From a virus (Duplodnaviria; Heunggongvirae; Uroviricota; Caudoviricetes): 48,034 nt of DNA. The stretch lies in IMG/VR virus record IMGVR_UViG_3300029079_000001; one strand, written 5' to 3'. The notes beneath the pieces are model-generated. The model was given only the letters and a program-made list of their open reading frames with translations. It did not search any database and was not told where the DNA came from. A program made the translations under genes and the position numbers. Positions 7,271 to 29,823 of this stretch are shown one piece after another. Within the stretch, counting starts at the first letter, position 1; each line of letters opens with the position of its first letter.

Positions 7271-8234
7271 AATTATCAGTAGATTGTTCCTCTAGTAACA
7301 ACTCAATTCTGCTTAGTATTTCTTTAGATATTTTTCGGCTATCAATTTTTATAGTTACAAAATTACCTTTATATCTAGCCGTGATCCCTTCCCCATATTT
7401 TTTCTCGTCTTTTGTTTTTTCCTCGTCGCCAACCAGAACAGAGTCAGATAATATTTGTATAATCCGTGAAGCTTCTAAATCCTCGCCGTTTTTTTTAATT
7501 GCCAGAAGATGATGAGCAGCATTGCTCATGGCAGCCATGTTTTTTTTGTAGACCTTAAACAAAGAATCTCCAGCACGAGCTGACAGTTCTCCTGGATGAT
7601 TGAAGATAGCTAATATATCTTTTGGTAGACCAGCTGTATTAATACAGCGAGTGATAATATTTCTGTCTATATTTTCAGCCTCGGCTAATGCTTTAACGTT
7701 ACCATCAAAGTCATTTAGCTTGCGTAAGTATCTCTTTCCTCTTTCGTATGCACTAATAGGCCTATAATCGTTACCAATTTGGGATAACCAATGCATCTGT
7801 TCATCGTCGAGATCACCTATTAAGACGCGATAGTCACATCCTGTTAATATCGCTGCTTTTCTTCTACGTGAGCCGTCAGCGACTTCAACGATTCCAGACA
7901 CTTTTCTGGCGAAAGCTGGATTTTGTTGTCCAGACGTTAGAAAAGATGGGATTAAATCGGCTAGAGAGGATTCATTTAATAAATCTTGATCGCGTTCATT
8001 ACCTAGCCATACCATTGTTGCCATTTCAACTTTATCTGCGGGAATTGTCTCTAACTTAAAGTTAACATTACGTCCGCATACTGGCAAAGTTATGCTGTTA
8101 CCGGTTAATGAACTCAGTTGACGTTTTAAATCACCAACCATAGGTGATACGGGCTGATGTTCAGGGGCATGATGATTATTACTCATAATGCGATTAATAT
8201 CTGGAGCATTTTTTAGAAGAGAGCGCTGTTTCAT
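7269..8234 (-). CDS. sopB: Partition protein SopB (ParB-type centromere-binding protein)
   Basis: 321 aa; ParB-like motif ...GSRRRKAAILTGCDYRVLIGDLDDEQ...; translationally coupled downstream of sopA. Confidence 0.8.
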   Translation of the reverse strand: MKQRSLLKNAPDINRIMSNNHHAPEHQPVSPMVGDLKRQLSSLTGNSITLPVCGRNVNFKLETIPADKVEMATMVWLGNERDQDLLNESSLADLIPSFLTSGQQNPAFARKVSGIVEVADGSRRRKAAILTGCDYRVLIGDLDDEQMHWLSQIGNDYRPISAYERGKRYLRKLNDFDGNVKALAEAENIDRNIITRCINTAGLPKDILAIFNHPGELSARAGDSLFKVYKKNMAAMSNAAHHLLAIKKNGEDLEASRIIQILSDSVLVGDEEKTKDEKKYGEGITARYKGNFVTIKIDSRKISKEILSRIELLLEEQSTDN

Positions 8235-9400
8235 TATTCGTTCTCCCAGCGAGGTTTTATTAGATCATCAAAAATTTCTCGGCAAACAGGGTCCCATATA
8301 GAAACAGCATTTCTCCATGCATTCAATGTTGAACGTTGGTTTGCTGCTTGTTCAAATACTGTTCTCATTTTTATCTGGCCTTTACCTACTTCATCGGTAA
8401 CGCGTACAACCTGACGTAATACCATTGATCCCCATGTATTTCTTATTTGTTCTTCCATCCATCGTGATTGATTCCCTGTAGTGAGACTATATTTAGTCAG
8501 AAGTAAGCGAACGGTTGGCTCAAATCCACCTAGGTCAACGCTTTCCAATAGATCGAGAAGCATTGTGAAAAACTGTAGAACAGAAGCGTAATCAAATAAT
8601 TCTGCAGGTGTAGCAACAACAATAACGTCAGCGGCACAAACAACGTTAATGGTTCCTGTACCGAGGTTCGGAGCACTATCTATAACGATAACATCGTAGT
8701 TATCCCAAACTGATTCAATAGCTGCGCGCAGCATAAGGTGTGGAGGATGAGGCAATTTACCCTGAGCATGATATTGCATGAGATCTGTTTCTATACGATG
8801 TAAAGCTAGGCAGCTAGGGATAATGTCTAGCCCAGGCCAACATGTTGGCTTTATAGCATATTCAGCGTTATCGCGTTCTCCTAAGTAAAATGGCAGTAAA
8901 GTATCCTCGGCATGGATATGTAAATCAGGAACATAACCGTGATACATAGAGGCCGTGCCTTGAGGATCGTTACCTTCAACCAAAAGAACACGATGACCTT
9001 GTAATGCTAACCATTGAGCTTGATGTACCGCAGACGATGTTTTATAAACGCCGCCTTTGTGTGACATAACGGCAAGCACAACAGGGTTTTTATCTTGTGG
9101 TCGTTGGTTTGGGTTGCCAAAAACTGCTCGCATACTGTTGATTTGATCTATGGTATAACCAGCACGACGTTCAATTCTTCCTCTCATTTCAAAGTCAGGT
9201 GCAGGTAAACGCCCGCTCTTCTCAGCATCTCTAATTGCTTGAGGAGTTACACCAATTAAATCTGCTACTTCAGTTATACCCCATCGGCGGGTGATACGCC
9301 GAGCTTCAGGACTATCATCACCGAATTGAGCGATTGCAATTGCTTGGGTCATTTCTTGACCTCTCGTAACACAATCTTGCAATAACTTTTTCAAAGACAT
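8234..9400 (-). CDS. sopA: Partition ATPase SopA (ParA/Walker-type, F SopA-like)
   Basis: 388 aa; deviant Walker A MSHKGGVYKTS; extensive similarity to recalled F-plasmid SopA (HTH ...AIAIAQFGDDSPEARRITRRW...). Confidence 0.9.
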   Translation of the reverse strand: MSLKKLLQDCVTRGQEMTQAIAIAQFGDDSPEARRITRRWGITEVADLIGVTPQAIRDAEKSGRLPAPDFEMRGRIERRAGYTIDQINSMRAVFGNPNQRPQDKNPVVLAVMSHKGGVYKTSSAVHQAQWLALQGHRVLLVEGNDPQGTASMYHGYVPDLHIHAEDTLLPFYLGERDNAEYAIKPTCWPGLDIIPSCLALHRIETDLMQYHAQGKLPHPPHLMLRAAIESVWDNYDVIVIDSAPNLGTGTINVVCAADVIVVATPAELFDYASVLQFFTMLLDLLESVDLGGFEPTVRLLLTKYSLTTGNQSRWMEEQIRNTWGSMVLRQVVRVTDEVGKGQIKMRTVFEQAANQRSTLNAWRNAVSIWDPVCREIFDDLIKPRWENE

Positions 9401-10047: not shown

Positions 10048-11949
10048 ATGAGCAAAGTAAAAATCGGTGAATTAATAAACTCACTTGTTAGCGATGTTGA
10101 GTCAATAGATAACTCTGACCGTCCTCAAGGGGAAAAAACAAAAAAAATAAAGGCTGTTGCATTAAAATTTAAAAATGCATTATTTAATGACAAGCGAAAG
10201 TTTAGGGGGAAAGGATTAGAAAAAAGAATTACAGCCAACACATTCAATGCCTATATGAGCAGGGCCAGAAAACGGTTTGATGATAAACTTCATCATAGCT
10301 TTGAAAAAAATATACATCGCCTATCTGAAAAGTATCCTTTATATAATGAGGAGCTATTGTCATGGCTTTCTCTACCTGCTGCCGATATTCGCCAGAGAAT
10401 GTCAGCTTTACAGGCAAAATTAAAATTAATTCTCCCTTTATCAGAAGATTTATCTAATATCAGAATTGGTGATAACAAAAGTCATAATAAGTTATTAAAA
10501 TTATCAAATAAATATAAAGAGTGGCAATTCGCCATATCTGATTTAACTAGCGATAACTGGAAAGATAAGCGCGATTATTTATATAAATTACTACAGCAAG
10601 GATCTGCCTTACTTGAGGAGTTGAATCAGCTAAAAGTTAACCATGAGATTCTCTATCATCTTCAACTAAGCCCTGCCGAACGCGCATCTATCCAGCAACG
10701 ATGGGCGGACGTTCTGCACAATAAGAAACGTAACGTGGTGGTCATTGATTACCCTAAATATATGCAAGCTATTTACGATATTATAAATAGCCCTGCTACA
10801 TTAAATAATCTAAACACTCGTTCAGGTATGGCTCCTTTGGCATTTGCACTTGCAGCATTGTCAGGAAGACGAATGATTGAGATTATGTATCAAGGTACAT
10901 TTACTGTTTCTGGTAAGTATACCGTTGATTTTTTAGGCCAAGCAAAAAAAAGAACTTCTGATGATATAACCAGAAAAATATATACATTATGCGAAGCAAA
11001 AACATTTGTTTATTTAATAAATGTACTTCGCTCATGCCCAGCAGCATCTGATTTTGATGATGTCGTTAAAGGTTATGGAGATAACGACACACGCTCTGAA
11101 AACGGACGGATTAATGCCATATTAGCAAAGGCTTTTAACCCGTGGGTTAAATCATTTTTCAAAGATGACCGCCGTGTTTATAAAGATAGTCGTGCTATTT
11201 ATGCCCGTATTGCGTATGAAATGTTTTTCCGCGTAGATCCTCGTTGGAAAAACGTAGATGAGGATGTTTTCTTTATGGAAATTTTAGGCCATGACGATGA
11301 AAACACTCAATTACACTATAAGCAATTCAAGCTGGCCAACTTCTCAAAGACATGGAGGCCAAATACTGGAAACGAAAATACCAGGCTGGAAGCATTGCAG
11401 CAGCTTGATGACGAAATGCCAGGATTCGCCAGAGGAGATGCCGGGGTTCGTCTGCATAACACAGTTAAGCAGCTGGTAGAGCAGGACCCCTCTATAAAAA
11501 TCACGAACAGCACTCTAAGAGCATTCAAATTTAGCCCTACAATGATTAGTCGATACCTGGAATTTGCTGCTGATGCTCTGGGGCAATTTGTTGGCGAAAA
11601 TGGACAATGGCAGCTGAAAATAGATTCTCCAGAAATCGTTATGCCTGACGAAGAAGAGCTGGAAGCAATACCTGAACAGACGGATGAATTATCAGAGGAT
11701 GACGATCTGGATGACGACGAAATTGAGATAGAGGAAGAGGAAGAGGAAGAGGAAGAGAGCGTAGAAGAACAGCAACCGCCCGCGCCTTCTTCACCTGTAT
11801 CTAAGCCGGTATTTAAGCCCGTGAGAAATATTGGTGATGGCTCATACGTTGTTGAGTTTCATTATAATGGCCAGAATTATGCTTGGTCCGGCATTGCAAA
11901 CAGCCCTATATCAGCAATGCAGTTAGCATGGCTGACATATTTCGGATAA
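10048..11949 (+). CDS. telN: Protelomerase TelN (telomere resolvase)
   Basis: 633 aa; N15 TelN-like sequence throughout with an acidic EEEEEEE C-terminal region; directly adjacent to the palindromic target. Confidence 0.9.
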   Translation: MSKVKIGELINSLVSDVESIDNSDRPQGEKTKKIKAVALKFKNALFNDKRKFRGKGLEKRITANTFNAYMSRARKRFDDKLHHSFEKNIHRLSEKYPLYNEELLSWLSLPAADIRQRMSALQAKLKLILPLSEDLSNIRIGDNKSHNKLLKLSNKYKEWQFAISDLTSDNWKDKRDYLYKLLQQGSALLEELNQLKVNHEILYHLQLSPAERASIQQRWADVLHNKKRNVVVIDYPKYMQAIYDIINSPATLNNLNTRSGMAPLAFALAALSGRRMIEIMYQGTFTVSGKYTVDFLGQAKKRTSDDITRKIYTLCEAKTFVYLINVLRSCPAASDFDDVVKGYGDNDTRSENGRINAILAKAFNPWVKSFFKDDRRVYKDSRAIYARIAYEMFFRVDPRWKNVDEDVFFMEILGHDDENTQLHYKQFKLANFSKTWRPNTGNENTRLEALQQLDDEMPGFARGDAGVRLHNTVKQLVEQDPSIKITNSTLRAFKFSPTMISRYLEFAADALGQFVGENGQWQLKIDSPEIVMPDEEELEAIPEQTDELSEDDDLDDDEIEIEEEEEEEEESVEEQQPPAPSSPVSKPVFKPVRNIGDGSYVVEFHYNGQNYAWSGIANSPISAMQLAWLTYFG

Positions 11950-12550: not shown

Positions 12551-12711
12551 GGTATGCACTCCGTTTAATTGGTCGTGCTACCACCAGAGTTCCTACGCTC
12601 TATATGGCGGTAGCCCAGACGGGGGTAGGAATACCGGTAAACGAAGAAACCGGCCAGCTAAAAGCTGCCCCATCTGAGCCACCATAAATTTGGTGTACGC
12701 AGATTTTACAC

Positions 12712-12736
12712 ACAAAAAAACACGCTGGCGCGTGTT
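12712..12736 (-). terminator. Intrinsic terminator inside the leader of the antirepressor-like operon
   Basis: On the minus strand AACACGC-GCCA-GCGTGTT followed by TTTTTTT. Confidence 0.7.
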
Positions 12737-12739
12737 GTG

Positions 12740-12900
12740 CGCTTCATTTACTCGGGTTCCTACGCCCGGCTACGGGATTTACCGTAGCAGAGTAAACTTT
12801 ACCGTCAAAACGACGCGCACGTCAATAATTTGCAAAGACATTTTACCCCGTGACCAGTCACGGGGACAGGTGTTTTTATAATTTGCTTGAACGAGTGATC
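12740..12900 (-). ncRNA. Candidate leader/small regulatory RNA region (N15 CA / P4 CI RNA-like control of the antirepressor operon)
   Basis: No ORF; 9-bp-stem hairpin CCCCGTGAC/GTCACGGGG at 12846..12865; lies upstream of the terminator; the 10-mer GTTCCTACGC occurs twice (12589, 12756) with a partially complementary GGTAGGAAT at 12624. Confidence 0.35.
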
Positions 12901-17100: not shown

Positions 17101-18150
17101 GATTTCATAGCCAGTCCGCAGGCCGGTATTCCCTTTTCCTTCTGTGGCAGATTTCCGGTCATTATCCAGTGCGCAGGTGATTTTTGCCGCCGGGTACATG
17201 TTTACCAGTTGTTCCACAACATGAACCATGTTGTTAGCGGATACAGCGACAACCACAGCGTCAAAGCGTTTATCTTTTTTCGTGGCAAGCCAGATGGATG
17301 CACCAGTAGCAAAACCTTCTGTAACAGCGATGTTTTGCGCCCCTTTCAGCTCACCGATAACAAAGCAGGCACCGACGAAATCGCCGCTGGTTACTGCGCT
17401 GGTCTGGTATTTCCCACCTTGTTTGTCGATTCGCTGCCAACCCACAATACGACCATCATAACGACCGTCCAGGTGAGCCAGAGGGATAGCCATATATGTG
17501 GTTGGCCCCCGGCTCCATTTCGCACTGTCGTGACTGGTCACGCGACGCACATCACATGAACTAAAAACGTCACGAATACCTTTTTTAATCGCATATGGCC
17601 ATGAGCCGTCTTCAGCCTGAGCATGTTCCCACGCGCTGTGGAATGCCAGCCATCCCAGCAAACGTTCATGGTCCATTTGGTTGTTTTTCAGGTCATTAAT
17701 TCGTTTTTGTTCTTCACGGCGACGACGTGCTTCGGCCTGACGTTCTATTCTTTCCCGTTCTTCTTCCGGTTGTGCGACCACGGTCGCATTATTCCGTTGT
17801 TGCTCACGGCGATATTCAGAAAACAGGAAGGAGAAACCGCTCCATGAGCCAGCATCGCTGCCTTTATGGACGAAGTTAATGAACGGGTAATCAATCCCTT
17901 TGCTGTGTTCCAGCCTGGAGTAAATTTCTACGCGTCCTTTCAGGCTCTTTTCGAGAGCTTCTGGAGATGTTTTATTGTATGAAGAGTAACGCTCAACCCC
18001 CCCGCGAGGGTTGAGTTGGATGTTGTCGGAACAGGCAGACCAGTTGATACCAGCCATCTGTGCCAGCTCGGTTAGTTCATCCCGTGCTGCTTCAATTAGC
18101 GAGAACGGATCGCTGCCAAAGCGATCCGCATAGAAATCGTTTAATGTCAT
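14155..18150 (-). CDS. repA: Replication protein RepA (multidomain primase-helicase, N15 RepA-like)
   Basis: 1331 aa; Walker A GMGSGKST in the helicase part; position and size match N15 repA; sopC-like palindrome #1 lies inside it at 17771..17788. Confidence 0.85.
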   Translation of the reverse strand: MTLNDFYADRFGSDPFSLIEAARDELTELAQMAGINWSACSDNIQLNPRGGVERYSSYNKTSPEALEKSLKGRVEIYSRLEHSKGIDYPFINFVHKGSDAGSWSGFSFLFSEYRREQQRNNATVVAQPEEERERIERQAEARRRREEQKRINDLKNNQMDHERLLGWLAFHSAWEHAQAEDGSWPYAIKKGIRDVFSSCDVRRVTSHDSAKWSRGPTTYMAIPLAHLDGRYDGRIVGWQRIDKQGGKYQTSAVTSGDFVGACFVIGELKGAQNIAVTEGFATGASIWLATKKDKRFDAVVVAVSANNMVHVVEQLVNMYPAAKITCALDNDRKSATEGKGNTGLRTGYEILSKFNDVRCVYPTFEDDPQMECSDFNDLHKLRGLRETARQLFATANRLKTGTDLLSLTLNRLKTIKRDNRRTFAKELLRAVDIGMLTCPVPNSPSDLFNMFCIVLREMGLENIYRATVKDHIARRLNKKCRIAQAPRSFSERITDPNKRPQHITYKRFETSVMTDDVLKYVQSLQGIVIVRAGMGSGKSTGLLRPLMHSSERGISVAHRVSLIGGLWEMMTEGKGVKADILHYQDPGYQEIAPYASKLTICINSIVKNCWQPLMRQHDYFGFDEATQGLRAVLSGRAMENPVAVFNTLIDALARTEQHPIMVDADANDLLVDLAELAMKRREELGLPAWLQIHVIELPVDVRNRETGEPIRVFYTEKDRIMTEVVKAVSDGEKIMLATDSSTFAEDVTATLRMHFPGKKFLCVNQKNKPEPEVEAFTNQPKKMVKKYDGLIYSPSISSGVSIEQKHFDRHFGMFCGEVVPSDAVQMLRRDRTAKEFIIGFDKARAKRETDPQKIERAFAQALLATAGMNGELTDVVFDGDRISMGVANTDFTRMKIKAAAIEATARNDYASNMICIMHSDGYKVSPLATDYAANDIGKDLRKEARDIVWEQTLDLHLNTETPQESEREELLKKRALTLEEQAKLVRWDIENELKLPVEEGTLKFYFDGARDKVRRYETMLLDEVTARRYDREEAAINFTYAYRQAGQWQYFVVTAMTREQADDVFKTKFPGIIDHKVKATPTVEVGARGFYALKSATLRQYFIDCGINPETMTGEATQERLKFARDNLMTAERRDLLNNVLHIGGFMTPKGKPKVPEALFKNICDSLGLKTGKRRGRDGDKRPTLRFVEPESAAFMLDILVQRQKDGLTLKTRKAEKTAIEMDRDLDLNIYMDDKTRSTNEQVQNAPHSVISEALAVLPVAVPESWAMSALSSEELATMSSWSSASIAMTFASLYLTEFMDHLSSNELRRLREYITGNSSCSYEEQGAFYG
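17771..17788. repeat. sopC-like centromere palindrome #1 (inside repA)
   Basis: TGTGCGACCACGGTCGCA. Confidence 0.6.
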
Positions 18151-19083: not shown

Positions 19084-19305
19084 ATGAAACCAGAAGAACT
19101 TATTCGCCACTTTGGCAGTGTAGAAAAAGCAGCGGCAGGGGTAGGTGTAACACCCGGAGCTGTTTACCAATGGTTAACCGCTGGAGAGATTCCTTCATTG
19201 CGGCAAAGCGATATTGAAGTTCGTACTGCTTATAAGCTGAAGAGTGACTTTACAACTCGGCGGGTAAAGCAGTCGATTAAGGAGAGTCGTAAGCGTGGAG
19301 CTTGA
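19084..19305 (+). CDS. cro: Cro-like HTH regulator
   Basis: 73 aa from ATG 19084 (the ORF track uses upstream TTG 19057); HTH AAGVGVTPGAVYQWL; divergent from cB. Confidence 0.7.
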   Translation: MKPEELIRHFGSVEKAAAGVGVTPGAVYQWLTAGEIPSLRQSDIEVRTAYKLKSDFTTRRVKQSIKESRKRGA

Positions 19306-20005
19306 GTATATACGCAGCTGCGTCTCTACGGCATTGGCTGATGTTCATTATCGCCAGCGTGGCATTCTGGAGGTCCAGCTTGAGCAGATGCGTCTCGGTA
19401 GATCAGGACGGTTTAACAATAAACCAGTCCGCTCAATCAGTGTGGGGGATGATAACTCATACGAAGTGTCCGTTCCTGCTGAGCCGGTTAGATTCCACCA
19501 GGGGAAAACATTTAAACAATCATCAATGTTGCTCACTGATATTGATTTTCAGAGCGCCAGCTGGCGCAGGGCTATTGGTCAGTTGAATAACGAGGAATCA
19601 GCCTGGCTTTATTATTGCTACGGATGCAAGCCTGATTACAACAATGATGTGATTGTTTGTCAGTGGTTATGGCTTGATTTTCTGGTTGCTCATTCGGGGG
19701 GCGGCTTTAAAAAAATGAAGGCCTCCACGAAAAAAGCCATGCGGAAATTGATTTATTACGCGGCACAGCAGGTTAAATCAGAACTTACGTGTGCTGAGTC
19801 AGTTGATGAGAGAGAACAGGACAGGCATCTGAGTTTTCTACTGAATATATCTATTGATAGCTGGAGACAAGATTATAAAGAACGCTGGCTTTTAATTAAG
19901 TCGCGATGTCTGAGCTTAAATCGAACTGCATTATTAAATGCGGCGGAGAAGCGCAGTGAAATCATCAAACGCCATCGGGCAGGAAGTGCCATTCTGCCTT
20001 TGTAA
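19295..20005 (+). CDS. Hypothetical early protein (236 aa), possibly a Q-like late regulator
   Basis: Directly follows cro; Cys-containing YYCYGCKPDY region; assignment is by position only. Confidence 0.35.
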   Translation: MELEYIRSCVSTALADVHYRQRGILEVQLEQMRLGRSGRFNNKPVRSISVGDDNSYEVSVPAEPVRFHQGKTFKQSSMLLTDIDFQSASWRRAIGQLNNEESAWLYYCYGCKPDYNNDVIVCQWLWLDFLVAHSGGGFKKMKASTKKAMRKLIYYAAQQVKSELTCAESVDEREQDRHLSFLLNISIDSWRQDYKERWLLIKSRCLSLNRTALLNAAEKRSEIIKRHRAGSAILPL

Positions 20006-20012
20006 ACAAGTT

Positions 20013-20258
20013 ATGTTCAGGAAACCGTCGAAGCCAGAATTAAGGTATTCGGGGGTAAGAAATGAATATGTTATCTGGTGTCCAACTTGTGGTTACAGGA
20101 CACGACCAGATAGTAATAAGCAGTCTGTAATTGCCGATTGGTATTTATCAAATCAGCCAGGTAATAAGCATATAGAAAATCTTTGGATTAAGCGTTACTT
20201 GGAAATCAGAGAGGGTGCGACCGTGGTCGCACAAGAAAATGAAAATAACGCCATTTAA
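20013..20258 (+). CDS. Small zinc-ribbon protein
   Basis: ATG at 20013; CxxC pair in ...VIWCPTCGYRTRPD...; sopC-like site #2 lies near its 3' end. Confidence 0.45.
   Translation: MFRKPSKPELRYSGVRNEYVIWCPTCGYRTRPDSNKQSVIADWYLSNQPGNKHIENLWIKRYLEIREGATVVAQENENNAI
20215..20232. repeat. sopC-like centromere palindrome #2
   Basis: GTGCGACCGTGGTCGCAC. Confidence 0.6.
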
Positions 20259-23570: not shown

Positions 23571-23858
23571 TCAATAGACGGCATTAATATTAATCGTTGC
23601 GCCACATGCTTGGGCATATTTTGATAAAGTTTTCATGCTTGCTCCTAAAGGATTGCTTTCCAGGCGGCTGATGGCGGACGGGCGCAAGCCCATTCTTTCT
23701 GCCAGAGCTGACTTCGTTAAACCTGCTCTTTCCCTCATTTCGTATAACATTTCGACCATCTCCAGTTCTTTATCGGCCTCTTCATATCCTTTGATAGCTT
23801 CTGGAGTGTTGAGTAGTTTTTCCTTTACTTCGTTAAACGGGATGCCTTTTGCTTTCAT
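23571..23858 (-). CDS. HTH (XRE-family) antitoxin, HigA-like
   Basis: 95 aa; HTH LTKSALAERMGLRPSAISRLES; start overlaps the upstream toxin stop. Confidence 0.65.
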   Translation of the reverse strand: MKAKGIPFNEVKEKLLNTPEAIKGYEEADKELEMVEMLYEMRERAGLTKSALAERMGLRPSAISRLESNPLGASMKTLSKYAQACGATININAVY

Positions 23859-24169
23859 CAGTTCATCTCCTTCAGGCGAGTTCTGGCGATTTCTATAGCC
23901 TTTACTGGTGTTTTCTGTGTCTTTTTTACAAATGCATGCAATAGATAAATTTCGTTACCAGTCGCGTAGGCGTATAGCGTTCTTGCGATATTTTTATCCC
24001 CTACTCTTAGTTCAAAGAGTCCTCCGCCTATTACACGGCTATGGGGCATCTTAAGTTTGTTTCCTTCTTTCTCAAGCCGTTCAATTAGCCTGGTCATGCG
24101 ACCTCGCAGATCGTCTGGTAGTTCAAGCAGTTCATCCAGTGCTGCAGGGTGGGTTATCACGTTAAACAT
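23858..24169 (-). CDS. RelE/ParE-superfamily toxin, Gp49/HigB-2-like
   Basis: 103 aa from ATG 24169 with AGGAGG RBS; toxin-upstream-of-antitoxin (hig-type) order; ...LFELRVGDKNIARTLYAY... core. Confidence 0.55.
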   Translation of the reverse strand: MFNVITHPAALDELLELPDDLRGRMTRLIERLEKEGNKLKMPHSRVIGGGLFELRVGDKNIARTLYAYATGNEIYLLHAFVKKTQKTPVKAIEIARTRLKEMN

Positions 24170-24227
24170 ATTATAGCCTCCTAACGCGCAAAATACACCA
24201 AAACGAGAAAACATTGCAAACATAAAA

Positions 24228-24568: not shown

Positions 24569-24796
24569 ATGAATATTAATGAAATTCGTGGAAATATGAC
24601 TGAAGCGGCCCTGAGTGTGGAATGTGTTATGCGTGGATACCCACGCATTTCCCTGAAAGAGTTAAGCGAAGCCTGTTTTTTGAGTCAAGTTGCCGTTGAA
24701 TTTATCATCGAACAGATGATCTGTTTTGGGGTTGCAAAGCGTAGTGGATCTGGTCGATATTCTTTGACCGATGAATATAAGCAGGCAACTTTCTAA
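24569..24796 (+). CDS. Hypothetical protein (75 aa)
   Basis: ORF; followed by sopC-like site #3 and terminator hairpins. Confidence 0.45.
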   Translation: MNINEIRGNMTEAALSVECVMRGYPRISLKELSEACFLSQVAVEFIIEQMICFGVAKRSGSGRYSLTDEYKQATF

Positions 24797-24800
24797 AAAC

Positions 24801-24818
24801 TGTGCGACCACGGTCGCA
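24801..24818. repeat. sopC-like centromere palindrome #3
   Basis: GTGCGACCACGGTCGCAC (intergenic). Confidence 0.6.
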
Positions 24819-24904
24819 CAGCACAAAAACGAAAAAGCTTGGCAAAATGACGGTTTTTAGTTATTGTTTTGTTAAGTTGGGTTTTTTGTACCCAACAGCC
24901 AACA

Positions 24905-24935
24905 AGCCGCCTTTATGGCGGTTTTTTTGTGCCTG
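24905..24935 (+). terminator. Intrinsic terminator(s) after the 24316..24796 genes
   Basis: AGCCGCC-TTTA-TGGCGG followed by TTTTTTT; a second hairpin GTTGGGT...ACCCAAC lies upstream. Confidence 0.55.
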
Positions 24936-25063
24936 AAAAGTGGGCGCAGGACAATTTGCAGCTTGTCCTGCGGTCAACCCATGCCAGAGCTATAGGCTGA
25001 ACCTAAAGCCCACCCGCGATGCGCATCGCCGGGTTAGCTTACCCAGGCAAAAAAATAATAGCT

Positions 25064-26140
25064 ATGTTCAAAACCACTAATATTCATGGCGCACAACTCG
25101 TTTGCGCAGATTCTCTGCAATTTATCAAAACCATCCCTGATAACTCGGTCAATTTGATTGCAACAGACCCACCATACTTCGGCGTAAAGGCTAACGCATG
25201 GGATAACCAGTGGGATAGCGATGCTGACTTTTTGGGGTGGATTGACGAATTTTTGGCAGAATTTTGGCGGATATTGGCCCCTAATGGCAGCCTGTATATG
25301 TTTACCGGCTCTCGCCTTGCGTCAAAAATTGAATTATTAACTCGCGACCGTTTCAATGTTCTGAACCATATCATTTGGGCTAAACCCAGTGGTATGTGGC
25401 GCGGTTGTCATAAAGAAAGTTTAAGGGCTTATTTTCCTGCTACTGAAAGAATATTATTTGCAGAGCATTACGGCGCGTCAGGTTATGCTAAAGGTCAGTC
25501 AGGTTATGCTTCAAAATGTGCAGATTTAAGAAAAAATATTTTTTCTCCACTAATTGATGCTTTTTCGCTGGCTCGCCGTCAGTTAGATATATCAGCCGCA
25601 GACATTAATTCAGCGACAGGAAAGCAGATGTGTTCGCACTGGTTTTCTTATTCGCAGTGGCGGCTTCCATCATTAATTGATTTTAATAAACTATGCGAAT
25701 TATTTCGCAGGAAGGCAGATTCACTCGGTGTCCCGTGTCCATATCCTTTTAATGTTGATTATTCAGAACATGAAAAGCGTTATAGCGATCTGAAATTGCA
25801 TTATGAGGAAGTAAAGAAGCAGTATGATGATTTGAAGGCTCAGTATGAAAATTTGCGCCGCCCATTTCATGTTACTGCTGATGTACCTTATACCGATGTA
25901 TGGGAGTTTCCTCCTGTGCAATATTATCCTGGCAAGCACCCATGTGAAAAACCTGCAGCGATGATGGAACATATTATAAAGAGTAGTTCACGCCCCGGAG
26001 ATATCGTTGCCGATTTCTTTATGGGATCAGGCTCAACTATTAAAGCTGCGCTGAAGTTAGGACGTCAGGCAATAGGTATTGAGATTGAGGGCGAACGTTA
26101 TCTTCAGACAGTTGATGAAGTGAAAAAGTTATTTGAGTAA
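25064..26140 (+). CDS. Orphan N6-adenine (beta-class, CcrM-like order) DNA methyltransferase
   Basis: DPPY catalytic motif (IATDPPYFG) N-terminal to the AdoMet motif FFMGSGST; ATG 25064 preferred over the longer 25019 frame. Confidence 0.75.
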   Translation: MFKTTNIHGAQLVCADSLQFIKTIPDNSVNLIATDPPYFGVKANAWDNQWDSDADFLGWIDEFLAEFWRILAPNGSLYMFTGSRLASKIELLTRDRFNVLNHIIWAKPSGMWRGCHKESLRAYFPATERILFAEHYGASGYAKGQSGYASKCADLRKNIFSPLIDAFSLARRQLDISAADINSATGKQMCSHWFSYSQWRLPSLIDFNKLCELFRRKADSLGVPCPYPFNVDYSEHEKRYSDLKLHYEEVKKQYDDLKAQYENLRRPFHVTADVPYTDVWEFPPVQYYPGKHPCEKPAAMMEHIIKSSSRPGDIVADFFMGSGSTIKAALKLGRQAIGIEIEGERYLQTVDEVKKLFE

Positions 26141-26154
26141 CTGGAGAATATATT

Positions 26155-26184
26155 CCCCTGCCGTTTTTGGTAGGGGTTATTTTT
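26155..26184 (+). terminator. Intrinsic terminator between the methylase and the lysis cassette
   Basis: CCCCTGCC-GTTTTT-GGTAGGGG followed by TTATTTTT. Confidence 0.55.
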
Positions 26185-26235
26185 GCCATATAGTTTCCAA
26201 GCCGAAACCTCAGCAACTATTGCGAGGTAAGAGAT

Positions 26236-26508
26236 ATGAAGATGGATGAACGATACAGCAGTGCATCTTATGGTAGCGCTGGTCTTGCTGCGTTCTTTGC
26301 CAGCCTGTCATTGCAGGATTGGGGCTTCATTATCGGTGTCGCGTTCAGCATTATCCTCGGTGTGCTTACATACCGGCTCAATAAACGCGAGCAGATGAAG
26401 CGCACGAAGATATTGCAGGACATATTGGATAAAACTAATACCAATAATCTTTCTGCTACAGCGATGGTTATTGGAGAGCTGGGGAAGAGAGCACCGAAGG
26501 AAATATGA
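26236..26508 (+). CDS. Class II holin (pinholin S21-like), MKM dual-start motif
   Basis: 90 aa; two TM segments ([27 protein letters not shown]); start overlaps into the endolysin gene. Confidence 0.7.
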
Positions 26509-27005
26509 TGCAGTCATCATTACGCAAAGCTGTCACAGTTGCTATTGGTGGCGGGGCTATTGCCATAGCGTCTATGCTCATCACTGGCCCAAGTGGTAAC
26601 GATGGTCTGGAAGGTGTCAGTTACATACCATACAAAGATATTGTTGGCGTATGGACTGTATGTTACGGACACACCGGAAAAGACATCATGCTAGGTAAAA
26701 CGTATACCGAAGCAGAATGCAAAGCTCTCCTGAATAAAGACCTTGCCACTGTCGCCAGACAAATTAATCCGTACATCAAAGTCGATATACCGGAAACAAC
26801 GCGCGGCGCTCTTTACTCGTTCGTTTACAACGTGGGCGCTGGCAATTTCAGAACATCGACGCTTCTTCGCAAAATAAACCAGGGCGATATCAAGGGCGCA
26901 TGTGACCAGCTACGTCGCTGGACATACGCTGGCGGTAAGCAATGGAAAGGGCTGATGACTCGCCGTGAGATTGAGCGTGAAGTCTGTTTGCGGGGGCAAC
27001 AATGA
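26505..27005 (+). CDS. SAR endolysin (phage lysozyme, T4-lysozyme-like fold)
   Basis: 166 aa; Gly/Ala-rich N-terminal signal-anchor [19 protein letters not shown]; lysozyme core ...[11 protein letters not shown]... Confidence 0.8.
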
Positions 27006-27093: not shown

Positions 27094-27555
27094 ATGAGTC
27101 GGTTAACCGCGATTATCTCCGCTCTGGTTATCTGCATCATCGTCTGCCTGTCATGGGCTGTTAATCATTACCGTGATAACGCCATCTCCTACAAAGAGCA
27201 GCGCGACAAAAACGCCAGAGAGTTGAAGCTGGCGAACGCCACCATCAAAGACATGCAGATCCGCCAGCGTGATGTAGCGGCTCTGGATGCCAAATACACG
27301 AAGGACTTAGCTGATGCTAAAAAGCAGCTTGATGATTTGCAGCGTTGTGTTCGCACTGGCAAGTGTGGGCTGCACCTCAACGCCAGATGTCCCGCGAACG
27401 GAGCGACCATCACCGGCGGCCTGGGCGATGCTACCGGCCCCCGACTTACTGACTCCGCTGAACGGGATTATTTCATCCTCAGAGAGCGAATCGTCACAGT
27501 GACGAAACAGGTTGGATATTTGCAGGAGTACATCAGGACGCAATGCCTGAATTAA
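27094..27555 (+). CDS. Rz: Spanin inner-membrane subunit Rz
   Basis: 153 aa from ATG 27094; N-terminal [17 protein letters not shown]; coiled-coil body; closely matches recalled lambda Rz. Confidence 0.85.
27314..27502 (+). CDS. Rz1: Spanin outer-membrane lipoprotein Rz1 (embedded in Rz, +1 frame)
   Basis: 62 aa; lipobox LASVGC; Pro-rich. Confidence 0.8.
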
Positions 27556-27596: not shown

Positions 27597-27923
27597 ATGA
27601 AAATTTATATTTCCGGACCAATGACGGGATATGAGAATTTTAATCGTGACGCCTTTAATAAAGAGGCTGAGCGTTTATCACGTCATGCTCACGTAGTCCT
27701 GAACCCGGCGATTTTTCCTAATGGCCTGACACAACGTGCACACATGGAGATTTGCTTTGCAATGCTTCGCTGTGCTGATGCTATTTTGATGCTTCCTGGC
27801 TGGAAAACATCTGCCGGAGCCACTGCGGATTACCATTACGCATACAAGATGGGGATGCCGGTATTCACTACGCTGAATTATCCGCCAGCTTGTTCCTCGT
27901 GTGCGACCGTGGTCGCACGCTAA
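27597..27923 (+). CDS. DUF4406-like protein (nucleoside 2-deoxyribosyltransferase-like fold)
   Basis: MKIYISGPMTG... N-terminal signature; sopC-like site #4 lies in its last codons. Confidence 0.55.
   Translation: MKIYISGPMTGYENFNRDAFNKEAERLSRHAHVVLNPAIFPNGLTQRAHMEICFAMLRCADAILMLPGWKTSAGATADYHYAYKMGMPVFTTLNYPPACSSCATVVAR
27901..27918. repeat. sopC-like centromere palindrome #4
   Basis: GTGCGACCGTGGTCGCAC. Confidence 0.6.
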
Positions 27924-28120: not shown

Positions 28121-28138
28121 GTGCGACCGTGGTTGCAC
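28121..28138. repeat. sopC-like centromere palindrome #5 (one mismatch)
   Basis: GTGCGACCGTGGTTGCAC. Confidence 0.5.
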
Positions 28139-28161: not shown

Positions 28162-29022
28162 ATGAAAGAGTTGCAAAAAATTAATTCAATAATGGAAAGG
28201 TTAAGTGCTCTTGAGCGTAAGCTGGACGATTGTGGAAAGCTGTGTGTTGAAAAGCAAAATGAGCTTTACCGAGAATTTTTTACAATCGTAAGTGAGCTGA
28301 TGCCAATTGTTAATAACTGCCTGATGACATCCAGATTTTTTAATGTCGATGCTACTACATCCAGAAAATTTTCTGTGAAAATTCAAGAAAGAGTTTCTGG
28401 TAGTGTGACAAGAGAGATGGCTGAACAGTTGGTGGCAATGAGCAATAAAACAAAAAGAAAAAAGGCATTGCTTGTAACAGCAAATCAGCTTTCAGGGCGC
28501 GTTGACTTTCAGGTCAGACAGGGTGGGCGTGTACTGGTAAATGATGCGTTCGTTGGACGTAGCTTTAGTCCTTACTCGATGAAATATGATGTTGATGCAG
28601 ATGATCAGGATATCAGCATTTCCTGGAAATCTGAGACAGCAGGGATTGTATTAACAGCAGAGTTGTTGAGTGATGATAAAAATGATGTCCAGCATCATTT
28701 GGACGAAAAGAATCATATTTCTGAAATTTGTATGAAGCCACGCAGCGGAATGACTTTATTGTCACGCACTCTTGCTGCTGGCTTTTCTGCACCGGAAAAA
28801 CGTGTGCTTCTGGTAGTGCCTGAAGATGCAGATATTCGACCACTGAATGGCTGTGATGTTATTAGTGCAAAAACATTGCATACCCGCGTCATTCCTGTAC
28901 CGGATGTGGTCATTATTGATGATGTTGAGAAATGCAAGTCTGTTTCCTCAACTGCCACAATCAAGCGAATTTTACGTTGTAGCACGTCGGCTGTTGTATT
29001 CCGGAAGCAGTTACATAACTAA
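28162..29022 (+). CDS. Hypothetical cytoplasmic protein (287 aa), AT-rich cassette gene 1
   Basis: ATG 28162 with AGGAGG RBS (the track's 27901 start reads through the repeat); N-terminal coiled-coil-like segment; no recognisable family. Confidence 0.6.
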   Translation: MKELQKINSIMERLSALERKLDDCGKLCVEKQNELYREFFTIVSELMPIVNNCLMTSRFFNVDATTSRKFSVKIQERVSGSVTREMAEQLVAMSNKTKRKKALLVTANQLSGRVDFQVRQGGRVLVNDAFVGRSFSPYSMKYDVDADDQDISISWKSETAGIVLTAELLSDDKNDVQHHLDEKNHISEICMKPRSGMTLLSRTLAAGFSAPEKRVLLVVPEDADIRPLNGCDVISAKTLHTRVIPVPDVVIIDDVEKCKSVSSTATIKRILRCSTSAVVFRKQLHN

Positions 29023-29146: not shown

Positions 29147-29596
29147 ATGCAAGAAGAAGCAAATAAAATTCTTGTTGATTTATTGAAGAAGGCCAGCGAT
29201 GGAATTGATTCCGCCATTGCATTCAGTCAGGCACAGATTCCGGATGTTGTTCATCAGTTGCTGGTATGGAATATGGTTGATAGCCTGATTAAAACATTAA
29301 TAGCCATTTCAACAATCCCGCTAGTTATTTGGTTTATGAAGAAACAGTACCAAAAAGTTGAAATTGGTAAGTTCGATAATGAAGGATGGTCATGGGAAAA
29401 ATGGAAGCCTAAATACAAACAGACTATGATTTGGGAAAGTAACGGTGAGATTAGTTTTCTTATCTTACCATTAGCAGCAGTTTTTGTTCTGTGGGTAAGT
29501 TTTATTATTGCTGTAGTAACCAATATGACATGGTTAAAAATCTGGTTGGCACCTAAGTTATATCTAATCGAATACGCAGCATCACTAATTAAATAG
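29147..29596 (+). CDS. Hypothetical membrane protein (149 aa, two TM segments), AT-rich cassette gene 2
   Basis: TM segments LIKTLIAISTIPLVIWF and ISFLILPLAAVFVLWVSFIIAVV. Confidence 0.55.
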   Translation: MQEEANKILVDLLKKASDGIDSAIAFSQAQIPDVVHQLLVWNMVDSLIKTLIAISTIPLVIWFMKKQYQKVEIGKFDNEGWSWEKWKPKYKQTMIWESNGEISFLILPLAAVFVLWVSFIIAVVTNMTWLKIWLAPKLYLIEYAASLIK

Positions 29597-29805: not shown

Positions 29806-29823
29806 GTGCGACCGTGGTCGCAC
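29806..29823. repeat. sopC-like centromere palindrome #6
   Basis: GTGCGACCGTGGTCGCAC. Confidence 0.6.

What the first reader, a model, noticed from the sequence alone, without database searches (positions are those of the whole stretch)
25064..26184. Orphan adenine methyltransferase placed immediately before the lysis cassette
A CcrM-like (DPPY then FxGxG) methyltransferase with no adjacent restriction endonuclease, followed by a terminator and then the holin gene. It may protect phage DNA from host restriction or have a regulatory role.
Basis: partly seen in the sequence, partly recalled or inferred. Interest (0 to 1): 0.35.

Follow-up and report, generated by a model that had tools for sequence, protein, structure and literature searches.

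The report
Phage late-gene adenine methyltransferase, M.EcoGII family
The gene is a real stand-alone DNA adenine methyltransferase of an N15-like phage-plasmid, the counterpart of N15 gene 52 and a relative of the non-specific enzyme M.EcoGII, so it is ordinary; the less ordinary part is a conserved folded RNA leader in front of it.

Summary
Window 25064-26140 (+) encodes a 358-aa beta-class N6-adenine methyltransferase, with DPPY at 25166-25177 and FxGxG at 26018-26032. An intrinsic terminator follows (26155-26184), then holin, endolysin and Rz/Rz1. No restriction enzyme is nearby.

The window is an N15-like telomere phage-plasmid. The gene is the ortholog of N15 gene 52 (82% identity). It is 99.4% identical to annotated genes in phages YDC107_1 and PhiR46_1.

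Its closest characterised relative is M.EcoGII, not CcrM. Identity to M.EcoGII is 56% over the full length, and 69% to a reconstructed, active ancestor.

A late promoter plus terminator lies just upstream, as annotated in N15. The enzyme is therefore most likely made only after Q antitermination. It would then methylate progeny DNA broadly, to evade restriction in the next host. Non-specificity and timing are inferred, not shown.

- A roughly 130-nt structured leader RNA (24933-25063) is conserved, with covariation, upstream of this gene family in N15-like and lambdoid phages. It has no Rfam match.
- A small phrog_331 gene is linked upstream.

Verdict: a new member of a known kind, of modest interest. 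The leader RNA is the part worth following up.

The parts
19295..20005 (+). Q-type late antiterminator gene, the presumed activator of read-through into the methyltransferase and lysis operon
   Evidence: Pfam PF06323 Phage_antiter_Q at E 4.5e-84 and phrog_304. It occupies the same position as N15 gene 40. That it acts on this operon is inferred.
24569..24796 (+). Small 75-aa protein of family phrog_331 (N15 gp51 ortholog), function unknown, genetically linked to the methyltransferase
   Evidence: phrog_331 at E 5.7e-32. SfV orf47 and Stx2a-WGPS2 gp28 belong to the same family, at E 6e-35 and 6e-37. A homolog lies less than 700 nt upstream on the same strand in 166 of 193 loci.
24802..24819 (.). 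18-bp palindrome GTGCGACCACGGTCGCAC just upstream of the late promoter, one of six copies in the window
   Evidence: One search finds 6 sites where 0.02 are expected by chance. It is conserved with compensating changes in other N15-like loci, for example TTGGGACCACGGTCCCAA. Its role is unknown.
24839..24867 (+). Late promoter, -35 TTGGCA, 17-nt spacer, -10 TATTGT
   Evidence: Promoter scan. It aligns with the -35 and -10 signals annotated in the N15 record and is conserved across N15-like loci. A conserved -10-like TAAGTT at 24873-24878 could be a sigma-dependent pause element; that is inference from knowledge of lambdoid pR' promoters.
24904..24932 (+). Intrinsic terminator t1, directly after the late promoter (a tR'-like arrangement)
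   Evidence: One search finds an 8-bp stem (5 G-C pairs) plus a T-run. It aligns with the stem-loop annotated in N15. The loop varies while the stem is kept across loci.
24933..25063 (+). Structured leader RNA. Domain 1 is P2 (UGGG/CCCA) stacked on hairpin H1, with a 5-nt bulge on the 3' side. Domain 2 is P3 (AAGC/GCUU) enclosing hairpin H3 with loop GCGC. In the minimum-energy fold, AGCUAU (24989-24994) pairs with AUAGCU (25058-25063), which abuts the AUG.
   Evidence: Covariance model R1 and alignment A6: 88.6% of cells paired against 65% in shuffles and 31-45% with slid partners; 28 of 33 pairs change on both sides. The fold has z -3.1, with 0 of 200 shuffles as stable. No Rfam family matches.
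25064..26140 (+). Methyltransferase coding sequence, 358 aa, beta-class N6-adenine, M.EcoGII family, ortholog of N15 gene 52
25166..25177 (+). Catalytic motif IV, DPPY
   Evidence: Read from the translation. These residues are invariant in 30 homologs.
26018..26032 (+). AdoMet-binding motif I, FMGSG (FxGxG)
   Evidence: Read from the translation. These residues are invariant in 30 homologs.
26155..26184 (+). Intrinsic terminator t2, between the methyltransferase and the holin gene
   Evidence: One search finds a 9-bp stem (6 G-C pairs) plus a T-run. Terminators are annotated at the equivalent position in N15 and SfV.
26236..26508 (+). Holin
   Evidence: phrog_1350 holin at E 1.5e-30. The Pfam holin families score below their cut-offs.
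26505..27005 (+). Endolysin (phage lysozyme)
   Evidence: PF00959 at E 7e-47 and phrog_7.
27094..27555 (+). Rz spanin, with an embedded Rz1-like ORF at 27314-27502
   Evidence: PF03245 at E 9e-40 and phrog_13. The embedded ORF is in the ORF list.

Best explanation
The gene encodes a stand-alone beta-class N6-adenine DNA methyltransferase of the M.EcoGII family. It is carried by an N15-like linear phage-plasmid as the first gene of the Q-dependent late operon.

Proposed sequence of events:
1. In the lysogen, transcripts from the late promoter (24839-24867) stop at terminator t1 (24904-24932), so the enzyme is not made.
2. After induction, Q-modified RNA polymerase reads through t1, the structured leader, the methyltransferase gene and terminator t2, and on into the lysis genes.
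3. The enzyme then methylates adenines in replicating phage DNA, probably in many or all sequence contexts, as M.EcoGII does.
4. Packaged genomes are thereby protected from adenine-methylation-sensitive restriction systems in the next host.
5. The folded leader, which can pair with the six bases just before the AUG, probably adds a translational brake on an enzyme that harms the cell. This would be analogous to the control of mom in phage Mu.

Shown here: enzyme family, motifs, predicted fold, synteny, promoter and terminator layout, and conservation and covariation of the leader.
Inferred: expression timing, Q dependence, lack of sequence specificity, the anti-restriction role, and what the leader does.
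For: Family:
- PF01555 at E 1e-46.
- Full-length, colinear 55.7% identity to M.EcoGII. Identity is 69%, 64% and 61% to the reconstructed ancestors Anc250, Anc242 and Anc284. The sequences come from PMC11551740 Suppl. Table S1.
- All expressed ancestors methylated DNA and RNA, with little variation in DNA activity (PMC11551740).
- The AlphaFold model (pLDDT 82) has a Rossmann core, a four-helix central domain (148-221) and a long helix (233-263). This is the architecture reported for M.EcoGII.

Orthology and context:
- 82% identity to N15 gene 52.
- Protelomerase, RepA, repressor, Cro and Q are all present in the window.
- The N15 record annotates -35/-10 signals and a terminator upstream of gene 52, and a terminator between gene 52 and the holin. 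These align with the window and match the scan.
- The same slot, between the late control region and the lysis or stx genes, holds the homolog in SfV, Stx2a-WGPS2 and Aeromonas phiARM81ld.

Silence in lysogens and the anti-restriction rationale:
- M.EcoGI and M.EcoGII are not expressed in the lysogen and slow growth when over-expressed (PMC5778455).
- Non-specific methyltransferases sit in the mom position, with Com homologs, in Mu-like prophages (PMC3299994).

Leader.

No endonuclease or defence gene is adjacent.
Against: - No activity or methylome data exist for this protein or for N15 gp52.
- At 56% identity to M.EcoGII, specificity cannot be read from sequence. The protein also has a 9-residue insertion (VPCPYPFNV) at the junction of the recognition domain and the linker.
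- For the deep ancestors Anc250 and Anc242, only bulk activity was measured, not specificity.
- The M.EcoGII and ancestor sequences were read by machine from a PDF and contain small errors, so identities are good to about 1-2%.
- Q dependence of the promoter is inferred from layout only.
- The pairing of the leader with the translation start region is only weakly better than chance in this window by a duplex test (-8.2 kcal/mol; 9% of shuffles do as well). It does appear in the minimum-energy fold.
Confidence: 0.7

Rival explanations
1. It is a sequence-specific orphan adenine methyltransferase. It would protect phage DNA only against particular restriction systems, rather than methylating adenine broadly.
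For: - Most PF01555 enzymes are site-specific.
- The M.EcoGII sequence cluster also contains the site-specific M.PflMI, which recognises CCANNNNNTGG (PMC11551740).
- The protein is only 56% identical to M.EcoGII and carries a 9-residue insertion near the recognition domain.
Against: - M.PflMI is only 27% identical to M.EcoGII and lacks the charged helical linker. This protein has that linker (helix 233-263).
- It is 64-69% identical to ancestors that lie between M.EcoGII and the M.PflMI split and that had M.EcoGII-like bulk DNA activity.
- The heavy gating by two terminators and a structured leader fits a harmful, broadly acting enzyme.
Confidence: 0.2
2. It has an epigenetic or regulatory role in the lysogen, like CcrM or Dam. 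It would be expressed from the plasmid prophage and would alter host or prophage gene expression or replication.
For: - Orphan methyltransferases such as CcrM and Dam do have regulatory roles.
- The structural search ranks CcrM first.
- A late-type promoter is probably constitutively active.
Against: - A terminator lies immediately after the promoter, and no other promoter-like site lies between it and the ATG.
- The CcrM equivalog model is far below its cut-off, at 67 against 830 bits.
- Relatives are silent in lysogens (PMC5778455).
- The gene sits in the late lysis operon in four unrelated phage backbones.
Confidence: 0.05
3. It is the modification half of a restriction-modification or other defence system whose nuclease has not been recognised, for example the unassigned ORF at 28162-29022.
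For: ORFs 28162-29022 (286 aa) and 29147-29596 have no Pfam, PHROG or PADLOC match. An unknown nuclease therefore cannot be formally excluded.
Against: - These ORFs are separated from the methyltransferase by the whole lysis cassette and a DUF4406 gene.
- They are absent from homologous loci that keep the methyltransferase. N15 has a cytosine methyltransferase in that position instead.
- The methyltransferase is conserved with phrog_331 and lysis genes, not with any nuclease.
Confidence: 0.03

Closest known systems
Bacteriophage N15 gene 52 ('possible adenine-specific modification methylase', NC_001901)
   Same: - It is the ortholog, at 82% identity over the annotated part.
- Neighbours are the same: gp50, gp51, late promoter, terminator, gene 52, terminator, holin.
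- The leader RNA is the same (R1 score 172 bits).
   Different: - The lysis genes downstream differ.
- The RefSeq gene 52 model starts 78 codons too late and so omits DPPY. The full ORF is intact in N15.
- No functional study of gp52 was found in the library searched.
M.EcoGII / M.EcoGI (non-specific adenine methyltransferases of E. coli O104:H4 prophages; PMC5778455)
   Same: - Beta class, about 350 aa, full-length colinear homology at 55.7% identity.
- Same predicted domain layout.
- Prophage-borne and placed in the late region.
- Close homologs (Stx2a-WGPS2, 93% identical to M.EcoGII) carry the same leader RNA and phrog_331 gene upstream.
   Different: - A different phage backbone: N15-like linear plasmid rather than lambdoid.
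- It belongs to a deeper branch, closest to ancestor Anc250.
- It has a 9-residue insertion.
- Non-specific activity has not been demonstrated for it.
Phage Mu com-mom operon, and the non-specific methyltransferases Hia5/Hin1523/Nme1821 in the mom position (PMC3299994)
   Same: - A broad adenine modification that protects phage DNA.
- Harmful to the host, and expressed late.
- The translation start is gated by RNA structure.
- Some relatives of this gene (L036, L070, phiARM81ld) do have a Com-like zinc-finger gene between the leader and the methyltransferase.
   Different: - There is no com gene in this window.
- Mom is not a methyltransferase.
- Hia5-type enzymes are alpha class.
- The leader here is a larger two-domain RNA.
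CcrM (Caulobacter cell-cycle methyltransferase, GANTC)
   Same: Beta-class fold, DPPY and FxGxG motifs, and orphan status. It is the top Foldseek match (E 1e-14).
   Different: - 19% identity.
- The NCBIfam CcrM equivalog scores 67 bits against a cut-off of 830.
- It has a different recognition domain.
- The gene is phage-borne and lies in a late operon.

Membership tests
Beta-class amino (N6A/N4C) DNA methyltransferases, Pfam PF01555 | Match to the family model above its curated threshold | tested here: met
   160.1 bits against a gathering score of 26.7, E 1.1e-46, covering residues 29-346.
Beta-class amino (N6A/N4C) DNA methyltransferases, Pfam PF01555 | Motif order: catalytic motif IV (D/SPPY) N-terminal, recognition region central, AdoMet motif I (FxGxG) C-terminal | tested here: met
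   DPPY is at residues 35-38 and FMGSG at 319-323, both invariant in 30 homologs. DPPY rather than SPPY favours adenine as the target; that step is inference from general knowledge of the motif.
Beta-class amino (N6A/N4C) DNA methyltransferases, Pfam PF01555 | Rossmann-type fold similar to solved beta-class enzymes | tested here: met
   The AlphaFold model has pLDDT 82. Foldseek matches CcrM, M.BceJIV, RsrI and MboIIA at E 1e-14 to 5e-12.
CcrM (equivalog NF050803) | Score at or above the curated equivalog cut-off | tested here: not met
   67.4 bits against a cut-off of 830. Only the C-terminal AdoMet region aligns.
M.EcoGII family | Full-length colinear homology to M.EcoGII, well above the 27% identity that the site-specific M.PflMI shares with M.EcoGII | tested here: met
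   55.7% identity over 359 aligned columns, E 1e-141. Identity to Anc250 is 69%. The M.PflMI sequence itself was not available; the 27% figure comes from PMC11551740.
M.EcoGII family | Rossmann domain, four-helix HTH recognition domain and long charged helical linker (the linker is absent in M.PflMI) | tested here: met
   The model has helices 148-174, 178-185, 190-194 and 204-221, and a long helix 233-263 rich in charged residues. This was compared with the description in PMC11551740. The two models were not superposed.
M.EcoGII family | Methylation of adenine in any sequence context | not testable with these tools
   This needs expression plus a methylome or LC-MS measurement.
M.EcoGII family | Encoded in a temperate phage and silent in the lysogen | tested here: inconclusive
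   The phage location is met. Silence is only inferred, from the promoter-proximal terminator.
N15 gene 52 orthologs | High identity plus conserved gene order (gp50, gp51, late promoter, terminator, methyltransferase, terminator, holin) in a protelomerase-bearing phage-plasmid | tested here: met
Mu com/mom-type translational control | Com zinc-finger activator gene directly upstream of the modification gene | tested here: not met
   No Com-like ORF lies in 24797-25063. Com-like genes are present only in other members of the family.
Mu com/mom-type translational control | The translation start region is sequestered in RNA secondary structure | tested here: inconclusive
   In the window's minimum-energy fold, the 6 nt before the AUG are paired, but the duplex test is weak (9% of shuffles do as well). 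In the lambdoid class, helix P4 is 87% paired against 22-40% with slid partners, and 4 of its pairs change on both sides.

The most novel reading that the evidence does not exclude
The roughly 130-nt leader (24933-25063) may be an undescribed class of cis-regulatory RNA. It would be dedicated to M.EcoGII-family methyltransferase genes in N15-like and lambdoid phages, including Stx and SfV phages.

Together with the linked small phrog_331 protein, or with a Com-like protein in some relatives, it would gate translation of a harmful non-specific methyltransferase. That would make it a functional counterpart of the Mu com-mom switch.
Probability: 0.45. Interest if true: 0.6.

Novelty: new member of a known kind. 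Interest (0 to 1): 0.35.

Why it matters
For the methyltransferase alone, not much. It places N15-type phage-plasmids among the carriers of M.EcoGII-like enzymes. It predicts that their virion DNA is heavily adenine-methylated, which bears on host range, on sensitivity to m6A-dependent restriction, and on long-read sequencing of these phages.

The leader RNA and the phrog_331 linkage matter more. M.EcoGII is a widely used chromatin-footprinting reagent, yet how its natural gene is regulated is unknown. A conserved RNA element with fixed spacing to the start codon offers a testable explanation for why these genes are silent in lysogens and hard to express.

Tried and rejected
- **Rfam.** The whole window at gathering thresholds, and 24600-26300 at E up to 1, gave nothing relevant to the leader.
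- **RNAalifold on a plain MAFFT alignment of 15 leaders.** It recovered only 6 pairs, because hairpin H1 was misaligned by one column between groups. I replaced it with a covariance-model alignment.
- **CcrM membership.** Rejected.
- **A Com-like ORF upstream in the window.** None was found. The 46-aa ORF at 24940-25080 overlaps the leader hairpins, and those stems change by compensating substitutions, so an RNA reading fits better than a coding one.
- **The 25019 ATG as the start.** Rejected.
- **Closing helix P1 (GCCUG/CAGGC).** Only 75% of cells pair, and it is absent in the lambdoid class. I kept it as tentative.
- **Duplex test of leader-to-start-site pairing.** Significant for the lambdoid and Com-type leaders (z -2.3 to -4.0). 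Weak for the window (z -1.4) and for the L035 group.
- **Defence or nuclease search on neighbours.** Nothing beyond a HigB/HigA-like pair.
- **Literature.** The Stx pR' comparative paper does not mention the methyltransferase. A survey of 224 RNA motifs does not list a DNA-methyltransferase leader. A paper on a Klebsiella N15-like phage lists a DNA methyltransferase only in a table of gene functions, with no analysis of it.
- **Supplement of the M.EcoGII paper.** Not held. I took the sequence from the SUPREM paper instead.

Full report

Yes. An ORF runs from 25019 or 25064 to 26140 on the + strand.
- From the ATG at 25064 it encodes 358 aa.
- These match Pfam PF01555 (N6_N4_Mtase) at E 1.1e-46 and 160 bits, against a cut-off of 26.7.
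- They also match PHROG phrog_67, 'DNA methyltransferase', at E 5.6e-90.
- DPPY lies at residues 35-38 and FMGSG at 319-323. Both are invariant in an alignment of 30 homologs.

The 25064 start is correct.
- Homologs from other phages align from residue 1.
- The upstream in-frame ATG at 25019 lies inside a conserved RNA hairpin and is not kept in other groups.

The downstream layout is as described.
- A terminator-like hairpin plus T-run lies at 26155-26184.
- Holin, lysozyme and Rz/Rz1 follow.
- No neighbour matches an endonuclease or a defence family, apart from a HigB/HigA-like pair at 23571-24223.

**2. What is the element around it?**

The window is an N15-like telomere phage-plasmid. It encodes:
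- SopA (8234-9400),
- a protelomerase (10048-11949, four TelK domains),
- a 1331-aa replication protein in the position of N15 RepA,
- a CI-type repressor, Cro, and a Q antiterminator (19295-20005, PF06323).

The region is 96% identical in DNA to phages YDC107_1 and PhiR46_1. PhiR46_1 has an annotated telL end. Sixteen of 5426 complete E. coli genomes carry the locus; all 16 matches lie on plasmid records, and the eight listed are 36-63 kb.

**3. Which methyltransferase is it?**

It is the ortholog of N15 gene 52, at 82% identity.
- The N15 RefSeq model of that gene starts 78 codons late and omits DPPY. The full ORF is intact.

Solved structures are only distant relatives.
- By sequence these are RsrI, M.BceJIV, DpnA, MboIIA and CcrM, at E 1e-22 to 1e-15.
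- The NCBIfam CcrM equivalog scores 67 bits against a cut-off of 830.

The closest characterised enzyme is M.EcoGII, the non-specific adenine methyltransferase of E. coli O104:H4 prophages (PMC5778455).
- I used the sequences in Suppl. Table S1 of PMC11551740. They were read by machine from a PDF and contain small errors.
- The window protein is 55.7% identical to M.EcoGII over its full length.
- It is 61% identical to ancestor Anc284 (SUPREM), 69% to Anc250 and 64% to Anc242.
- It is 57% identical to the Stx2a-WGPS2 enzyme, which is itself 93% identical to M.EcoGII.
- That paper reports that all expressed ancestors methylated DNA and RNA, with little variation in DNA activity.
- It also reports that the nearest site-specific enzyme, M.PflMI, is only 27% identical to M.EcoGII and lacks the charged linker.

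An AlphaFold model (pLDDT 82) shows the expected layout.
- It has a Rossmann core.
- It has a four-helix central domain (148-221).
- It has a long helix (233-263).
- This matches the architecture described for M.EcoGII.

Foldseek returns beta-class enzymes at 22% identity or less.

So family membership is well supported. Lack of sequence specificity is a reasonable inference, not a result.

**4. How is it expressed?**

The N15 record annotates -35/-10 signals and a terminator upstream of gene 52, and another terminator between gene 52 and the holin. The window aligns base for base with these. The scan finds:
- a promoter-like site, TTGGCA-17-TATTGT, at 24839-24867,
- terminators at 24904-24924 and 26155-26176.

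A promoter followed at once by a terminator, in a phage with a Q protein, is the lambdoid pR'-tR' design. This step rests on established knowledge of lambdoid late control, and Q dependence here is inferred.

The same slot holds the homolog in three other phages:
- SfV: Q, terminator, orf47, methyltransferase, terminator, S.
- Stx2a-WGPS2: methyltransferase, tRNAs, stx2.
- Aeromonas phiARM81ld: a Com-like gene, methyltransferase, holin.

M.EcoGI and M.EcoGII are reported silent in the lysogen and deleterious when over-expressed. The likely role is therefore late, broad methylation of progeny DNA to evade restriction. A regulatory role in the lysogen is unlikely.

**5.

*Conservation.* The 130 nt between terminator t1 and the ATG are conserved in every N15-like locus recovered. 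Each sequence folds into the same hairpin: UGGG/CCCA closing a 10-13-bp stem of variable sequence, with a 5-nt bulge on the 3' side.

*Reach.* A covariance model built from seven N15-group sequences finds full-length matches ending at the start codon in three settings:
- all N15-like loci, at E 1e-38 to 4e-4;
- upstream of the M.EcoGII-type genes of SfV, Stx2a-WGPS2 and other lambdoid prophages, at E about 0.01-0.04;
- upstream of a Com-like gene that precedes the methyltransferase in L036 and L070.

*Covariation* (26-sequence alignment).
- 88.6% of cells are paired. The figure is 65.0% in shuffles and 31-45% with slid partners.
- 28 of 33 pairs change on both sides.
- The covariation score is 0.549 against 0.186, reached by 0 of 500 shuffles.
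- The alignment was fitted to the structure, which favours it. The size of the gap and the many pair types in H1 make an artefact unlikely.

*Specificity.* A motif-only DNA scan of IMG/VR was run. Of the 80 loci analysed, 77 have a family methyltransferase starting 22-23 nt downstream. Two were GC-rich chance hits and one was a disrupted copy.

*Stability.* The window's leader folds at -49.2 kcal/mol (z -3.1). The fold pairs AGCUAU (24989-24994) with AUAGCU (25058-25063), which abuts the AUG.

*Start-site pairing in other classes.* In the lambdoid class the equivalent helix is 87% paired, against 22-40% with slid partners, with limited covariation. In the window's own group the evidence for start-site sequestration is weaker.

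*Prior description.* Rfam has no match. I found no description of this element in the papers searched.

**6. A linked small gene**

The 75-aa ORF at 24569-24796 belongs to phrog_331. So do SfV orf47 and Stx2a-WGPS2 gp28. A homolog lies within 700 nt upstream, on the same strand, in 166 of 193 loci. Six further loci have a Com-like gene. The loci are not independent samples, but the linkage spans unrelated phage backbones. The protein's function is unknown.

**7. Verdict**

- The gene is a new member of a known kind: the N15 gene 52 / M.EcoGII family, in a known genomic slot.
- Interest is modest.
- The leader RNA and its linkage to phrog_331 are the parts that deserve follow-up.

Noticed in passing
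window 24933-25063 (+); also L001:5859-6003, L004:3858-4003, L005:17250-17390: A conserved two-domain structured leader RNA lies directly upstream of M.EcoGII-family methyltransferase genes in N15-like and lambdoid phages. It has strong covariation and fixed spacing to the AUG, and no Rfam family matches it.
   Followed up: yes
window 24569-24796 (+): A small phrog_331 protein (N15 gp51, SfV orf47) is linked upstream of the methyltransferase in 166 of 193 loci, across unrelated phage backbones. It gives a weak winged-helix-like hit and its function is unknown. It could be a regulator of the methyltransferase.
   Followed up: partly
window 17772-17789, 20215-20232, 24802-24819, 27901-27918, 28121-28138, 29806-29823: An 18-bp palindrome, GTGCGACCACGGTCGCAC, occurs six times where 0.02 are expected. 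Five of the six copies lie at gene or operon boundaries; the sixth (17772) lies inside the replication gene. The copy before the late promoter is conserved in other N15-like phages, with compensating changes in its arms. It may be an RNA hairpin or a protein-binding site.
   Followed up: partly
L005 (N15, NC_001901) 17343/17388-18476: The RefSeq model of N15 gene 52 starts at an internal Met and omits the first 78 codons, including the catalytic DPPY motif. The full-length ORF is intact.
   Followed up: yes
window 12603-12689 and 12715-12788 (-): Rfam hits above gathering score to C4 antisense RNA (73.6 bits) and isrK (62.5 bits). These suggest a P1/P7-type antisense immunity and antirepressor control region next to the protelomerase.
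   Followed up: no
window 23571-24223 (-): A toxin-antitoxin pair in the HigB/HigA style, made of a Gp49/DUF891 protein and an HTH_3 protein. It is oriented against the flanking genes and matches N15 genes 48 and 49.
   Followed up: no
window 28162-29022 and 29147-29596 (+): Two ORFs (286 aa and 149 aa, the second probably a membrane protein) have no Pfam or PADLOC match (PHROGs was not run on them). They are flanked by copies of the 18-bp palindrome and occupy the slot where N15 has a cytosine methyltransferase (gene 58). This may be a variable cargo position.
   Followed up: partly
L040:2940-3006, L044:2940-3006: Another subgroup of the methyltransferase family lacks the leader motif. It has instead a strong terminator followed by a short hairpin whose 3' arm contains the AUG and whose loop contains the Shine-Dalgarno sequence. 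This is a different solution to the same gating problem.
   Followed up: no
L036:2831-2938, L070, L003:3835-4050: In some relatives a Com-like zinc-finger gene (CPHC...CSRC; phrog_6417 and phrog_13819) sits between the leader RNA and the methyltransferase, as in the Mu com-mom operon.
   Followed up: partly
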